Under the pieces are notes generated by a model, which did not search any database, was not told the origin of the DNA, and worked only from the letters and a program-made list of their open reading frames with translations. Positions 40,064-57,965 of a DNA stretch of 64,000 nt are shown piece by piece (within the stretch, counting starts at the first letter, position 1; every line of letters starts with the position of its first letter). Made by a program: the position numbers and the translations under genes. The stretch lies in NCBI RefSeq assembly GCF_036507355.1, contig NZ_AP027878.1; one strand, written 5' to 3'. The DNA comes from Escherichia coli. Its GTDB lineage: Bacteria > Pseudomonadota > Gammaproteobacteria > Enterobacterales > Enterobacteriaceae.

Positions 40064-40500
40064 CCAGAATAATTGAGTAACGACTATTATTTAACCAGCA
40101 AAGTAACTTTTAATTTTTTTTCTTCTCCCATTGATTTTTGTGCACAGCTTATCTGCCTTGCCGTGCGCAGAATCAACTTTTTTCTTCCTGATTTATCCAC
40201 AAAGTTATGCACTTGCAAGAGGGCCATTTTCTAAATATTGTGATGCTTCACAAATGAAATGAATTTTGATTAATGAAGATAAGGAGAAAATTTGAGATGC
40301 AATCATGACGTTAATAGATAGGGTCTGCATTACAGACCCCACCCGCATCAAGGAATTAGCCGTTCCCTGATGTTGTTCCGAAAACATGTGCCGTAAGCTC
40401 ACGTTAACGACTTTCTTTCACCGAATCCAACTATATAAGGGTTGGGTTTCTACGTCAACGTGAGCAAGTGCTCCTTTACATTTGACAAGGAACCACCTTA

Positions 40501-40638
40501 ATGACTGCTTTTTTTCAGTTCCTGAGTGCATTTTTAGATGCGCCTGTTATTAGCCAGATTCTGGCTATTATCCTCATCATCGTTTTGATTTTGCTTTTAA
40601 GGTCAGTAAAAAATGGAATTATGCACTGGCTTACTTAA
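40501..40638 (+). CDS. Small hydrophobic peptide (45 aa), hypothetical membrane peptide
   Basis: AAGGAACCACC RBS then ATG; MTAFFQFLSAFLDAPVISQILAIILIIVLILLLRSVKNGIMHWLT; followed by a 19-bp perfect palindrome. Confidence 0.3.
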   Translation: MTAFFQFLSAFLDAPVISQILAIILIIVLILLLRSVKNGIMHWLT

Positions 40639-40713
40639 TGTTTCAGTGAAACATTAAAATCTCCTTGATGTGGAAACAATAATTTTCTGTATGTGCTGGT
40701 GGGTACCTGTAGT

Positions 40714-41076
40714 TCAGCTTTCGTTGGCATTTAACTTCGTCTTTGCTTTCTCCACCAGCAACTTCCAGATGCCTATTTCATTAGCAGCCGCCTTGATGGC
40801 GGCATAAAAAGCATCTTGCTGATCGTAACGCTGAATCTGTTTTTTCAGTTTTGCCTCCACCAATTTAATTTCATTACGTGCTTTCTGAAGCCGCAGCGCC
40901 GCCCGGTTACGTCTGTTCTTGTATAGCGCGTTAATCTCTGACAATTGCTTTAATTTACCAGCCTGACTGCGGATTATCGCCTCTCTGACTTCTGCCGTGC
41001 GTCTCATCTGATCTCTTAAGAGTTCACCGTTTTCGATAATTCTTTCAAGGTGTTTGATGTGATCTGCAACTCTCAT
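40714..41076 (-). CDS. Hypothetical coiled-coil protein
   Basis: 120-aa ORF, last gene of a minus-strand operon. Confidence 0.45.
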   Translation of the reverse strand: MRVADHIKHLERIIENGELLRDQMRRTAEVREAIIRSQAGKLKQLSEINALYKNRRNRAALRLQKARNEIKLVEAKLKKQIQRYDQQDAFYAAIKAAANEIGIWKLLVEKAKTKLNANES

Positions 41077-41408
41077 ACTTCACCCTCGCTTGTATCGCCA
41101 GCATCCACCAACGGCAATAAAGCCATGGCCATCTTATGAACCAACAGAGCATCGATAATGCCAAGCGTATGCCCCGGCTTAATGTTTAATGCCGCCTCAA
41201 GGTGACACCTTTCTAGGTCACTTTTCTCGGCTTGTTTATGATGATCTGGCGTAATAACGTCGCCCAAAACACGGCTAATTCTTTCTCGTAATTGCTGGGT
41301 GCCAGCACACTTGACCGCTGTATCGTGGAGGCGGTTAACCAGTTCGCGATAAACATGCGGCTTAATTCGGATACGTTCACCGGGGACGCCCTTTCCTTTC
41401 GCTGGCAC
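41073..41408 (-). CDS. Hypothetical protein; overlaps upstream ORF by about 195 bp in another frame
   Basis: 111-aa ORF with protein-like composition. Confidence 0.3.
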   Translation of the reverse strand: MPAKGKGVPGERIRIKPHVYRELVNRLHDTAVKCAGTQQLRERISRVLGDVITPDHHKQAEKSDLERCHLEAALNIKPGHTLGIIDALLVHKMAMALLPLVDAGDTSEGEV

Positions 41409-42142
41409 CGAACTATCCGGAATGTCCGGATAGTTGCCAGCCTCGTAACCCAGGGATTAGCACTCCAGCTTTCTTCGCCGTAGATGGATTCCCACAGGCG
41501 CTGGAACGCAACCTTGGCCATTGCGAAATCCCCCTTGGGAGTAAGGAATGTTCCCGGGTGATCAGGAAGCAAACTTCCAGCAGGCGGAACGCCCTCATCC
41601 CTTGCATCGCATTCGCTGATATCGTTCAACCGTTCAACGCGCACGTTGGTAATTTCCAACAGAATGCGTGATGCCCATCGCGGCATGTGAATTGATGGAC
41701 GCCACCCACCATCAAACTTTTCATTCACAGTGTGAGGTTTCCAGTCGGCATCATCGGGTATCGACCATAAGCCGTAATCACCAGGTTTTTGCTCGCAACT
41801 GGCCCGATAAATCCTTGCTGCGTTCTTCTCATCGCCACGACAAAGGTTGTCGTTCCAGTCCACACTGCAACCATCCTCATTGCCTAATATCGCCCATGTT
41901 TCACGAACCCAAATTCGATCGCCGACGATACCAAATGGGCAATTGAAAACACTGCTTACACCATCAGCCCCGTACCACTGAAAACCTGCACCAATTTTTC
42001 TAACCATCACTGGTGCTTCTGGACCAACTTCCGCAGGCTGATTTTTCATTATCCGCCGCGTCTGCGTTTTCCTTCCTTCGAGGATGGCCCGGACCATCTC
42101 ATCGTTGAAAATCATGCCGCGCTCTTTCACTTCGCCTTTCAT
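41213..42142 (-). CDS. ASCH-like domain protein (C-terminal third uncertain)
   Basis: 309-aa ORF; N-terminus FNDEMVRAILEGRKTQTRR and ...NPWV resemble ASCH/PUA-like proteins; tail beyond NPWV overlaps next ORF. Confidence 0.45.
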   Translation of the reverse strand: MKGEVKERGMIFNDEMVRAILEGRKTQTRRIMKNQPAEVGPEAPVMVRKIGAGFQWYGADGVSSVFNCPFGIVGDRIWVRETWAILGNEDGCSVDWNDNLCRGDEKNAARIYRASCEQKPGDYGLWSIPDDADWKPHTVNEKFDGGWRPSIHMPRWASRILLEITNVRVERLNDISECDARDEGVPPAGSLLPDHPGTFLTPKGDFAMAKVAFQRLWESIYGEESWSANPWVTRLATIRTFRIVRCQRKERASPVNVSELSRMFIANWLTASTIQRSSVLAPSNYEKELAVFWATLLRQIIINKPRKVT

Positions 42143-42151
42143 GCATCCCCC

Positions 42152-42238
42152 TTACCCATGCGCGACGATGCCGCCAAAAGTGATAGAGAACAGCCAGAAA
42201 TAGATCGCGGCCATAATGATTTTGAATGCCGTGTTCAT
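42152..42238 (-). CDS. Tiny hydrophobic peptide (28 aa) translationally coupled to the ASCH-like gene
   Basis: CAGGAG RBS, MNTAFKIIMAAIYFWLFSITFGGIVAHG; its stop is followed by a GGGGGA Shine-Dalgarno that serves the ASCH-like start. Confidence 0.3.
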   Translation of the reverse strand: MNTAFKIIMAAIYFWLFSITFGGIVAHG

Positions 42239-42320
42239 ATTTTCAGCTCCTGTGATTGATTGGAAACATGCCGCGCCTTGCGGCATGTTTTTATTTTCAC
42301 TTTCTCTGTTTTAAAAATCA

Positions 42321-42337
42321 AGATTTATTAGAGCAAT
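42321..42337. promoter_or_regulatory. C1 operator upstream of the ASCH operon
   Basis: AGATTTATTAGAGCAAT, one mismatch. Confidence 0.65.
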
Positions 42338-42843
42338 TATTGTTGATGAAGAAGCGCATTTTCATACTCCCTGACCATTAACGTAAGCACGCCGTGCCTC
42401 CTGAAAACACGCGCCACTTCAATCTTATCTTCCAGCGCGAACGCGATTTTACTTAGACCAATTTTCTTAAGGAGATCAATCTTTGCTGGGCCGTCATTTC
42501 TGTCATCTGTGGCAGGACGCATAGATAGCAAAGGCTCAGCCCCGTTTGTTACGTACTTCCGCAGCCAGGCTCGTGTTTTATCCCTTGCGATCTCACAGCG
42601 CCCGGTTACAAACCAGACCGTGTAAACGTTAAATAACTGGCGCACCATATCAATAACTGGAGTGATGGGAGTATCGGTGTCACAGGCGAGATTAAACTCG
42701 TTCCAGTCCTTTGTTAATGCACCTTTACCTGGTGGCGGAAGCAAATGCAGTCTGTCTTCAGTTGCCTCTGATATTGTTCCATCAATATCGACTATGACGA
42801 TATACGGACGTTCCTGGTGTGCGTGTTTATTGAAAATACTCAA
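42337..42843 (-). CDS. HAD-superfamily phosphatase-like protein
   Basis: 168 aa; IVDIDGT motif I near N-terminus. Confidence 0.55.
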   Translation of the reverse strand: MSIFNKHAHQERPYIVIVDIDGTISEATEDRLHLLPPPGKGALTKDWNEFNLACDTDTPITPVIDMVRQLFNVYTVWFVTGRCEIARDKTRAWLRKYVTNGAEPLLSMRPATDDRNDGPAKIDLLKKIGLSKIAFALEDKIEVARVFRRHGVLTLMVREYENALLHQQ

Positions 42844-57937: not shown

Positions 57938-57965
57938 ATTACACTAATAAATTTATTAGAGCAAT
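57938..57965. promoter_or_regulatory. Bipartite C1 operator overlapping the promoter of the tRNA/ban operon
   Basis: Perfect AAATTTATTAGAGCAAT (57949-57965) overlapping a second inverted copy (57938-57954); minus-strand -35 TTGCTC and -10 TAATAT with 17-bp spacer. Confidence 0.8.

What the first reader, a model, noticed from the sequence alone, without database searches (positions are those of the whole stretch)
41073..42337. ASCH-like gene with a 195-bp same-strand overlap to the next ORF, led by a translationally coupled 28-aa hydrophobic peptide
The ASCH-like ORF continues about 65 codons past its expected NPWV end into sequence that overlaps, in another frame, a protein-like 111-aa ORF. 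This suggests a frameshift (programmed or mutational) or mis-set boundary. Upstream, a 28-aa hydrophobic peptide gene ends with TAA followed by GGGGGA and the ASCH ATG, a classic coupling arrangement, all under a near-perfect C1 operator.
Basis: seen in the sequence. Interest (0 to 1): 0.4.

Follow-up and report, generated by a model that had tools for sequence, protein, structure and literature searches.

The report
Deletion scar joining phage P1 pmgT/pmgU
The overlapping gene pair is the long-annotated pmgT/pmgU of phage P1, and it is the scar of a roughly 6.8-kb deletion that joined two truncated genes out of frame, not a programmed frameshift.

Summary
On the minus strand a 309-codon ORF (41213-42142) overlaps a 111-codon ORF (41073-41408) by 196 nt. 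A 28-codon hydrophobic ORF (42152-42238) precedes it, and a 16/17 C1 operator sits at 42321-42337. The region is phage P1, where these are pmgT, pmgU and OpmgT/Op88, annotated with the same overlap.

Comparison explains the overlap. About 45,000 PmgT-family clusters end shortly after NPWVWV(I/V)EF, but P1 breaks after NPWV. PmgU relatives are normally 195-310 aa, and P1 keeps only their last ~125 codons. A close relative, pIDPH8234-2, is colinear on both sides (98.3% and 99.8%) and carries 6,756 bp between the two points that abut in P1 at 41446/41447. The joint is out of frame, so pmgT runs 77 codons through pmgU sequence.

That tail frame shows no protein constraint (pN/pS 1.34, against 0.21 for the pmgU frame). 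No slippery heptamer is present. NCBI's PGAP annotates an identical plasmid as two truncated pseudogenes, and CRISPRi shows all three genes are dispensable.

The fold search supports the ASCH-like call. The small ORF looks like a separate conserved gene, and coupling to pmgT is untested. Ordinary and essentially known; low interest.

The parts
42321..42337 (-). C1 repressor operator OpmgT (former Op88). It overlaps the predicted promoters P1pmgT and P2pmgT (about 42293-42336).
   Evidence: 16/17 match to ATTGCTCTAATAAATTT. Annotated in NC_005856 (locus-to-window offset 38199).
42264..42290 (.). Perfect 11-bp inverted repeat with a 5-nt loop, between the promoter and the small ORF. It is terminator-like on the + strand (a T-run follows) and would form a 5'-proximal hairpin in the minus-strand transcript.
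42152..42238 (-). 28-codon hydrophobic small ORF (MNTAFKIIMAAIYFWLFSITFGGIVAHG) with AGGAG 8 nt upstream. Its stop TAA is 9 nt before the pmgT ATG and in the same frame. It is not annotated in the P1 reference.
   Evidence: 100% conserved in 18 of 19 P1-like phage records. Intact in 81 of 82 IMG/VR copies. Retained where pmgT is replaced. Annotated 'membrane protein' in SJ46.
41447..42142 (-). Genuine part of pmgT: codons 1-232 of an ASCH-like protein. The last 10-14 conserved codons (WVIEF[KE]RIQ...) are missing.
41446..41448 (-). Deletion junction (...CCCTGGGTT|ACGAGGCTGG...) with 1-2 nt (T/TT) of microhomology. Relative to plasmid pIDPH8234-2, 6,756 bp are missing.
41213..41446 (-). Out-of-frame tail of pmgT: 77 codons plus the stop, read in the +1 frame of pmgU-derived sequence. 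It has no homologues as a protein.
   Evidence: pN/pS 1.34 in this frame. No counterpart in 59 aligned family members. Tail length varies (318 and 288 aa variants).
41073..41447 (-). 3' remnant of a pmgU-family gene (last 124 codons plus the stop). The annotated pmgU is the sub-ORF from GTG 41408.
   Evidence: 100% nucleotide identity to the 3' end of a 310-aa gene in pIDPH8234-2. phrog_21459 is covered only from position 38. Homologues are 195-310 aa. pN/pS 0.21.
41401..41441 (.). Extended palindrome GCTGGC-AACTATCCGGA-CAT-TCCGGATAGTT-CGGT-GCCAGC, which contains the GTG 'start' of pmgU. It is present in all pmgU-family genes at the domain boundary.
40714..41076 (-). pmgV. Its ATG overlaps the pmgU stop (ATGA), and a GAGG lies 8 nt upstream.
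   Evidence: phrog_4403, full length.

Best explanation
The overlap is a recombination scar. In the ancestor of the classical P1 lineage, an illegitimate deletion of about 6.8 kb removed three things:
- the last 10-14 codons and the stop of pmgT (an ASCH-like gene);
- a block of variable Ea22-like, DUF551 and DUF4752 genes;
- the 5' portion of a pmgU-family gene.

The two broken ends were joined at 1-2 nt of microhomology, one nucleotide out of register.

**What follows from this (inferred, not shown)**
- Ribosomes that start at the pmgT ATG make 232 genuine residues. They then read 77 codons of pmgU-derived DNA in the wrong frame until a chance stop at 41213.
- The annotated 111-aa 'pmgU' is simply the longest ORF left in the correct frame of the 3' remnant. 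Its GTG has no real Shine-Dalgarno sequence and lies inside a strong hairpin, so independent translation is doubtful.
- The operon is transcribed from the C1-repressed Op88 promoter region. It begins with a separate, conserved 28-aa membrane-type small ORF placed 9 nt before pmgT.

**Status of each step**
- Shown: the deletion, both truncations, and the lack of coding constraint on the tail frame.
- Inferred: which products are actually made in P1.
For: 1. The window is colinear with pIDPH8234-2 on both sides of the junction: 43500-41448 at 98.3% and 41448-40603 at 99.8%. That relative carries 6,756 extra bp between the two points, and its gene order is pap - pmgT (246 aa) - variable genes - 310-aa pmgU - pmgV.
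2. The junction sequences show pmgT ...CCCTGGGTT|TGGGTAATC and pmgU ...GGGTAGCTT|ACGAGGCTGG recombined to ...CCCTGGGTT|ACGAGGCTGG.
3. The PmgT family has 45,230 representative clusters, and 59 aligned members all end 8-20 aa after NPWVWV(I/V)EF. P1-like relatives are 192-195 or 241-246 aa. phrog_874 is covered only up to position 251 of 277.
4. PmgU homologues are 195-310 aa. Their sequence continues upstream of P1's GTG as YEAGNYPDIPDSS, exactly as in P1's open frame up to the junction.
5. Across 14 distinct alleles, pN/pS is 0.21 in the pmgU frame and 1.34 in the pmgT-tail frame.
6. The P1-type junction is found in only 4 of 406 plasmid records and 6 of 408 E. coli genomes that carry this DNA, all 99.7-100% identical.
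7. PGAP annotates an identical plasmid as two pseudogenes, one 'missing C-terminus' and one 'missing N-terminus'.
8. pmgT, pmgU and pmgV are non-essential in P1 by CRISPRi (PMC10695390). pmgT-humD is a hypervariable region among P1-like phage-plasmids (PMC9603915).
Against: - No expression data were available, so whether the chimeric PmgT or the PmgU remnant is made or functional is unknown.
- The exact 309-aa chimera is on record on 389 contigs, so the scar is at least tolerated in a successful lineage.
- Several independent deletions keep the same PmgU C-terminal module: P1, L043/P0150, and the in-frame SJ46-type fusion. This hints that the remnant may still be useful.
- AlphaFold places P1 residues 231-239 (WVTRLATIR) as the final beta-strand at high pLDDT, so PmgT may still fold. 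That confidence could be borrowed from the alignment.
Confidence: 0.9

Rival explanations
1. Programmed -1 ribosomal frameshifting. A fraction of ribosomes translating pmgT slip into the pmgU frame after the junction and make an ASCH::PmgU fusion. This would be analogous to the in-frame 392-aa fusion found in SJ46-type plasmids.
For: - pmgU lies in the -1 frame of pmgT, and that frame is open from 41456.
- A natural in-frame ASCH::PmgU fusion exists on 313 contigs.
- An A_AAG single-codon slip site is present at 41399-41396.
- A strong hairpin lies nearby.
Against: - There is no X_XXY_YYZ heptamer anywhere in the permissive window.
- The hairpin lies upstream of the A_AAG site, not 5-9 nt downstream.
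- The same A_AAG and hairpin occur in the in-frame 310-aa gene of pIDPH8234-2, so they were not shaped for shifting.
- The arrangement exists only in one near-clonal lineage.
- The deletion fully accounts for the frame relationship.
Confidence: 0.04
2. This is a functional overlapping pair. The truncated PmgU (111 aa) is translated on its own from GTG 41408. Ribosomes translating the pmgT tail might melt the hairpin that hides the start. PmgU would then act as a stand-alone C-terminal module and feed translation into pmgV through the ATGA overlap.
For: - The C-terminal module is under purifying selection in relatives.
- The module is the unit swapped between different N-termini.
- An independent deletion (L043/P0150, 32 contigs) places the same module directly behind the small ORF, with an ATG overlapping that ORF's stop.
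- The pmgU stop overlaps the pmgV start.
Against: - The GTG has at most a GGA upstream and sits inside a 17-bp stem.
- PGAP treats it as a pseudogene fragment.
- pmgU is dispensable.
- There is no post-deletion divergence with which to test selection.
- pmgV has its own GAGG Shine-Dalgarno sequence.
Confidence: 0.15
3. Sequencing or assembly error in the P1 reference created an apparent frameshift in one long gene.
For: The reference dates from 2004, and the two ORFs are one nucleotide out of register.
Against: - The identical junction appears in independent complete plasmids from a crane, pig, calf and humans, and on hundreds of contigs.
- The two halves belong to unrelated gene families that lie 6.8 kb apart in relatives.
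Confidence: 0.01

Closest known systems
pmgT/pmgU/pmgV of Escherichia phage P1 (NC_005856; P1_gp095-097) with operator OpmgT/Op88
   Same: Identical sequence and the same annotated 196-nt overlap, promoters and operator.
   Different: The reference annotation treats both as intact 'putative morphogenetic' genes and does not annotate the 28-codon ORF. The comparison here shows both are truncated remnants of a deletion, as PGAP's pseudogene calls on an identical plasmid also imply.
SJ46-type 392-aa 'ASCH domain-containing protein' of P1-like plasmids (e.g. NZ_AP025206.2)
   Same: The same two gene families are joined at the very end of the ASCH gene (NPWVWVI|...), and the protein ends with the same PmgU C-terminal module.
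   Different: It is an independent event that is in frame. It retains about 95 more residues of the pmgU-family gene and uses a shorter ASCH variant. It yields a genuine fusion protein found on 313 contigs.
Programmed -1 frameshift sites (E. coli dnaX A_AAA_AAG; lambda G/GT G_GGA_AAG)
   Same: Two same-strand ORFs with the downstream one in the -1 frame, and an A_AAG tetranucleotide is present.
   Different: There is no slippery heptamer, no downstream stimulatory structure, and no conservation of the two-frame layout. Knowledge of the dnaX and lambda G/GT sites is from memory, not tested here.
Mosaic Ea22-like/DUF551 gene blocks of lambdoid and P1-like phages
   Same: The deleted block and the N-terminal parts of pmgU-family genes belong to these highly recombinogenic modular families. 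The region is hypervariable among P1-like phage-plasmids.
   Different: P1 retains only the C-terminal module, without any N-terminal module.

Membership tests
ASCH domain (Pfam PF04266, PUA-like beta-barrel) | Significant match to the Pfam ASCH profile | tested here: inconclusive
   P1 PmgT itself has no hit at E<=0.1. 5 of 60 aligned homologues match, best E 1.2e-4. PGAP names close relatives 'ASCH domain-containing protein'.
ASCH domain (Pfam PF04266, PUA-like beta-barrel) | ASCH-type fold | tested here: met
   The AF2 model has mean pLDDT 83.6. The top Foldseek PDB hits are all ASCH proteins: 3s9x (prob 1.00, E 8e-3, TMt 0.48), 1t62, YqfB 9kyf, ZmASCH 5guq and PH0355 2z0t (TMt 0.60). The scores are modest because of large insertions and the foreign tail.
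PmgT family (phrog_874) | Complete C-terminus NPWVWV(I/V)EF(K/R)R followed by a stop within about 20 residues | tested here: not met
   P1 diverges after NPWV. The near-invariant W233 and F237 are absent and 77 unrelated residues follow.
PmgU family (phrog_21459) | Full-length protein of 195-310 aa with an N-terminal module | tested here: not met
   P1 PmgU covers profile positions 38-147 of 150. Homologues are 195-310 aa.
Programmed -1 ribosomal frameshift | Slippery heptamer X_XXY_YYZ in the upstream frame | tested here: not met
   None between 41456 and 41213. Only the single-codon sites A_AAG, C_CCG, A_AAC and A_AAA are present.
Programmed -1 ribosomal frameshift | Stimulatory structure 5-9 nt downstream of the slip site | tested here: not met
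   The only strong hairpin (41401-41441) lies 5' of the A_AAG site.
Programmed -1 ribosomal frameshift | Two-frame arrangement conserved among diverged homologues | tested here: not met
   The junction occurs only in near-identical P1-lineage sequences. Relatives have separate genes or an in-frame fusion.
Dual-coding overlapping genes | Purifying selection in both frames of the overlap | tested here: not met
   pN/pS is 0.21 in the pmgU frame and 1.34 in the pmgT-tail frame. The tail stop is lost or shifted in variants.
Deletion-generated gene remnants (pseudogene fragments) | Both flanks colinear with a relative that carries intervening DNA, and both ORFs truncated at the joint | tested here: met
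   (6,756 bp). PGAP flags 'missing C-terminus' and 'missing N-terminus'.
C1-controlled P1 operator | Match to the asymmetric 17-bp consensus ATTGCTCTAATAAATTT overlapping a promoter | tested here: met
   16/17 match at 42321-42337. Annotated as OpmgT/Op88 overlapping P1pmgT and P2pmgT. C1 binding was not tested here.
Translationally coupled upstream small ORF | Stop of the upstream ORF within a few nucleotides of the downstream start, and downstream translation dependent on the upstream ORF | not testable with these tools
   The proximity is met (TAA-9 nt-ATG with GGGGGA between), but dependence cannot be tested. The small ORF persists without pmgT in at least 19 of 83 IMG/VR loci and in many plasmids.
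Small membrane protein gene | Conserved intact ORF with SD, a TM-length hydrophobic core, and coding constraint | tested here: inconclusive
   The SD and a roughly 21-residue hydrophobic core are seen in the sequence. 81 of 82 copies are intact. There are about 6 synonymous (including stop-preserving) against 7 non-synonymous distinct changes, which is too few to decide.

The most novel reading that the evidence does not exclude
The scar may not be inert. The PmgU C-terminal module could be a selectable unit that P1 still expresses, either by internal initiation once pmgT-translating ribosomes melt the palindrome, or by low-level A_AAG slippage. In addition, the conserved 41-nt palindrome at the module boundary, together with the TGGGTxTGGGT motif at the pmgT end, may act as hotspots that repeatedly generate new fusions in P1-like phage-plasmids. 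At least six independent junctions were seen at these two places.
Probability: 0.12. Interest if true: 0.35.

Novelty: already known. Interest (0 to 1): 0.12.

Why it matters
The main value is for annotation. In the reference genome of a classic model phage, 'PmgT' (309 aa) is a chimera with a 77-residue nonsense tail, and 'PmgU' (111 aa) is a fragment of a larger modular protein. Neither should be used as a family archetype or as an example of gene overlap or recoding.

The case also shows how a deletion in a hypervariable phage region can mimic a frameshift signal. It points to an unannotated, well-conserved 28-codon membrane-type ORF at the head of the Op88 operon.

Tried and rejected
- **Direct family scans.** Pfam and NCBIfam scans of PmgT, PmgU and the small ORF gave nothing significant. 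A PDB sequence search with the PmgT profile and with PmgU also gave nothing.
- **PmgU structure.** The prediction had pLDDT 49 and was unusable, so no fold search was run. Reading residues 11-50 (ERIRIK / helix / GT / helix) as a ribbon-helix-helix motif is therefore only my own reading of the sequence and remains untested.
- **Rfam.** The scan of 40500-42600 gave only a sub-threshold chance GcvB hit.
- **Selection after the deletion.** This could not be tested. All junction-bearing sequences are identical in the overlap, and the few protein variants are too sparse.
- **Small-ORF searches.** A DNA pattern scan of IMG/VR was used instead. Its exact 23-nt seed biases against divergent copies.
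- **84-bp IncF match.** It first looked like a mobile mini-module but is a relic cut by IS1 next to hsdR.
- **Literature.** The Lobocka 2004 P1 genome paper is not held. The P1 virion/assembly paper does not mention these genes. No Op88-specific paper was found.
- **Sequencing-error reading.** Rejected.
Full report
**What is there**

All the relevant genes lie on the minus strand of the window:
- a 168-codon ORF at 42337-42843;
- a 28-codon hydrophobic ORF at 42152-42238 (MNTAFKIIMAAIYFWLFSITFGGIVAHG), with AGGAG 8 nt before its ATG;
- a 309-codon ORF at 41213-42142;
- a 111-codon GTG ORF at 41073-41408;
- a 120-codon ORF at 40714-41076.

The 309- and 111-codon ORFs overlap by 196 nt, and the second is in the -1 frame of the first. 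The small ORF ends TAA, followed by GGGGGATGC and then the ATG of the long ORF.

A 16/17 match to the C1 operator consensus lies at 42321-42337. Eight such sites occur in the window against none in shuffles.

**Identity**

The segment is phage P1. It is 99.2% identical over 2.2 kb and identical to NC_005856 from the pap stop to the end of pmgV. The P1 record annotates pap, pmgT (309 aa), pmgU (111 aa, same overlap), pmgV, the predicted promoters P1pmgT and P2pmgT, and the operator OpmgT (former Op88). The small ORF is not annotated there.

**Why the ORFs overlap**

*The pmgT side*
- In other Punavirus genomes the pmgT homologue is 241-242 aa and ends NPWVWVIEF[KE]RIQ(E)*. Their nucleotide similarity to P1 stops exactly after NPWV, at window 41447/41448.
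- Among 83 IMG/VR P1-like loci, about 45 have pmgT ending this way at 192-195 or 241-246 aa. Only two have the 309-aa P1 form.
- The family is very large: 45,230 representative clusters at E<=1e-3. In an alignment of 59 members that are 37-62% identical to P1, every protein ends 8-20 residues after NPWVWV(I/V)EF. P1 alone carries 77 further residues with no counterpart.

*The pmgU side*
- Phage D6 encodes a 360-aa protein whose last ~125 residues are PmgU, including AGNYPDIPDSS upstream of P1's GTG.
- The common forms of PmgU relatives are 195-310 aa.
- phrog_21459 is matched by P1 PmgU only from profile position 38.

*The missing DNA*
- Plasmid pIDPH8234-2 has the order pap - pmgT (246 aa) - about 6 kb of Ea22-like, DUF4752 and DUF551 genes - a 310-aa pmgU-family gene - pmgV.
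- A direct blastn shows window 43500-41448 colinear with it at 98.3% and window 41448-40603 at 99.8%. The relative carries 6,756 bp between the two blocks.
- At the nucleotide level, pmgT ...CCCTGGGTT|TGGGTAATC and pmgU ...GGGTAGCTT|ACGAGGCTGG have become ...CCCTGGGTT|ACGAGGCTGG in P1. The microhomology is 1-2 nt, and the joint is one nucleotide out of register.

The overlap is therefore the scar of an illegitimate deletion. pmgT lost its last 10-14 codons and its stop, and now reads pmgU-derived DNA in the wrong frame until a chance stop. 'pmgU' is the longest ORF left in the correct frame of a 3' remnant.

**Which frame is conserved**

I compared 14 distinct alleles of the 291-nt shared segment by Nei-Gojobori counts.

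| Frame | pN/pS |
|---|---|
| pmgU frame | 0.21 |
| pmgT-tail frame | 1.34 |
| third frame | 4.5 |

- The tail frame has only one stop in all alleles, so its openness is an accident of the sequence and not something that evolved in P1.
- Variants of the P1-type chimera have tails of 318 aa (stop lost) or 288 aa, which again argues against constraint on the tail.

**Is it a programmed frameshift?**
- pmgU is in the -1 frame, and that frame is open from 41456.
- No X_XXY_YYZ heptamer exists in the pmgT frame anywhere a shift could produce a fusion. Only single-codon sites are present, the best being A_AAG at 41399-41396.
- The one strong structure is a 41-nt palindrome at 41401-41441. Its 11-bp perfect core plus a 6-bp outer stem dominates the predicted fold.
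- That palindrome lies upstream of the A_AAG site, not downstream. The same palindrome and A_AAG occur in the in-frame 310-aa gene of the relative.
- The arrangement occurs only in a near-clonal lineage: 4 of 406 plasmid records and 6 of 408 E. coli genomes with this DNA, all 99.7-100% identical.

I put programmed frameshifting at about 4%.

**Is it an error?**

No. The same junction is in complete plasmids from a crane isolate of E. albertii and from human, pig and calf E. coli. The exact 309-aa product is on record on 389 contigs.

**How others read it**
- NCBI's PGAP annotates an identical plasmid (NZ_CP063505.1) with two pseudogenes that abut at the junction, one 'missing C-terminus' and one 'missing N-terminus'.
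- A genome-wide CRISPRi study scores pmgT, pmgU and pmgV as non-essential, and cites a knockout study for the same result (PMC10695390).
- A survey of P1-like phage-plasmids lists pmgT-humD as one of eight hypervariable regions (PMC9603915).

**What the parts are**
- *PmgT.* It is ASCH-like. Pfam ASCH matches 5 of 60 homologues (best E 1.2e-4), though not P1 PmgT itself. An AlphaFold model built on the family alignment has mean pLDDT 83.6. Its best PDB matches are all ASCH proteins: 3s9x, 1t62, YqfB, ZmASCH and PH0355. The model places P1 residues 231-239 as the last strand at high confidence and leaves 245-252 disordered, followed by two lower-confidence helices. The strand confidence may be borrowed from the alignment, so whether the chimera folds remains open.
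- *PmgU.* The C-terminal module has no recognisable family, and its model was unusable (pLDDT 49).
- *PmgV.* It is intact (phrog_4403, full length). Its ATG overlaps the pmgU stop.

**The small ORF**
- It is identical in 18 of 19 P1-like phage records and intact in 81 of 82 IMG/VR copies.
- It is kept where pmgT is replaced by other DNA: 19 of 83 IMG/VR loci and many plasmids, where similarity ends right after TAAGGGG.
- Distinct substitutions outside the search seed number about 6 synonymous or stop-preserving against 7 non-synonymous. That leans toward constraint but is too few to decide.
- It is annotated 'membrane protein' in SJ46.

I read it as a separate small membrane-protein gene at the head of the Op88 transcript. 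Coupling to pmgT is plausible from the 9-nt spacing but untested.

**Most likely working picture**
- *Shown:* the Op88 operator and predicted promoters (annotation plus sequence), the deletion, both truncations, and the lack of constraint on the tail.
- *Inferred:* on loss of C1 repression the transcript yields the 28-aa protein, a chimeric PmgT (232 genuine plus 77 nonsense residues), little or no PmgU fragment (its GTG is buried in the palindrome with only a GGA upstream), and PmgV from its own GAGG.

**Residual doubt**

Several independent rearrangements keep the same PmgU module:
- P1 itself;
- L043/P0150, where the module sits directly behind the small ORF with an ATG overlapping that ORF's stop;
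- the in-frame 392-aa SJ46-type fusion, found on 313 contigs.

Several other independent junctions fall right after NPWVWV (P0392, P0397, P0399, L047). This may reflect selection for the module, recombination hotspots, or both. I could not separate these.

**Verdict**

It is a deletion scar in a hypervariable region of a well-known phage, already annotated as overlapping genes and already flagged by PGAP as truncated fragments.

Noticed in passing
window 41401-41441: A 41-nt palindrome (GCTGGC-AACTATCCGGA-CAT-TCCGGATAGTT-CGGT-GCCAGC) encodes AGNYPDIPDSSVPA at the module boundary of all pmgU-family genes. Four different joints fall within or near it: the P1 junction (6 nt upstream of its 5' end), the D6/P0140 N-terminal swap point (at the 5' edge), the P0406 swap point (NGNYPD), and the L043 deletion joint (inside the 3' arm). 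It may be a recombination hotspot or a protein-binding site.
   Followed up: partly
window 41447-41460 and relatives (P0392, P0397, P0399, L047, L011): At least five further independent fusions start right after NPWVWV at the 3' end of pmgT, each continuing into different downstream sequence. The tandem TGGGTxTGGGT there may be a preferred breakpoint.
   Followed up: partly
L043 (IMG/VR 2778261696_000004); protein P0150: An independent deletion joins the small ORF's stop directly to the PmgU C-terminal module (CATGGGTAG|TTCGGTGCC). This creates an ATG that overlaps the TAG stop, a textbook coupled start for a 115-aa PmgU. It is on record on 32 contigs.
   Followed up: partly
window 42140-42238: The small ORF is in the same frame as pmgT, separated only by TAA GGG GGA TGC. 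One database variant (P0395, 274 aa, 3 contigs) has TAA changed to GAA, giving a TM-helix::PmgT fusion.
   Followed up: no
window 42261-42303: A 15-bp hairpin followed by TTTTTATTTT on the + strand looks like an intrinsic terminator for transcription antisense to the pmgT operon. It sits between the Op88 promoters and the small ORF. On the minus strand it would be a 5'-proximal stem-loop of the pmgT mRNA.
   Followed up: no
L016 (NZ_CP025708.1 169018-169101) and about 280 other plasmid records: An 84-bp piece of the small ORF (98.8% identical) lies between an IS1 end and the 3' end of hsdR in IncF-type plasmids. The same downstream sequence (TAAGGGGAGTATATTAGCC...) follows the small ORF in 19 of 83 P1-like IMG/VR loci. 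The IncF copies are therefore relics of a P1-like element carrying a type I R-M locus at this position.
   Followed up: partly
proteins P0218 and P0225 (PmgU homologues): These two database proteins read an internal stretch in the pmgT-tail frame (SVLAPSNYEKELAVFWATLL... and ERASPVNVSALSRMFIANWL...) and then return to the PmgU frame. These are compensated double frameshifts or assembly errors.
   Followed up: no
window 41280-41378 (PmgU residues 11-50): The sequence ERIRIK-PHVYRELVNRLHDTAVKCA-GT-QQLRERISRVLGDVI has the strand/helix/G-T/helix pattern of a ribbon-helix-helix DNA-binding motif. Eight PHROG families share this stretch. There is no Pfam or PDB support, and the structure model was too poor to test it.
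   Followed up: partly
window 11999, 31891, 31974, 48087, 57938, 57949, 61471: Seven further matches (0-2 mismatches) to the C1 operator consensus, including an overlapping divergent pair at 57938-57965. This is consistent with the known dispersed P1 operators.
   Followed up: no
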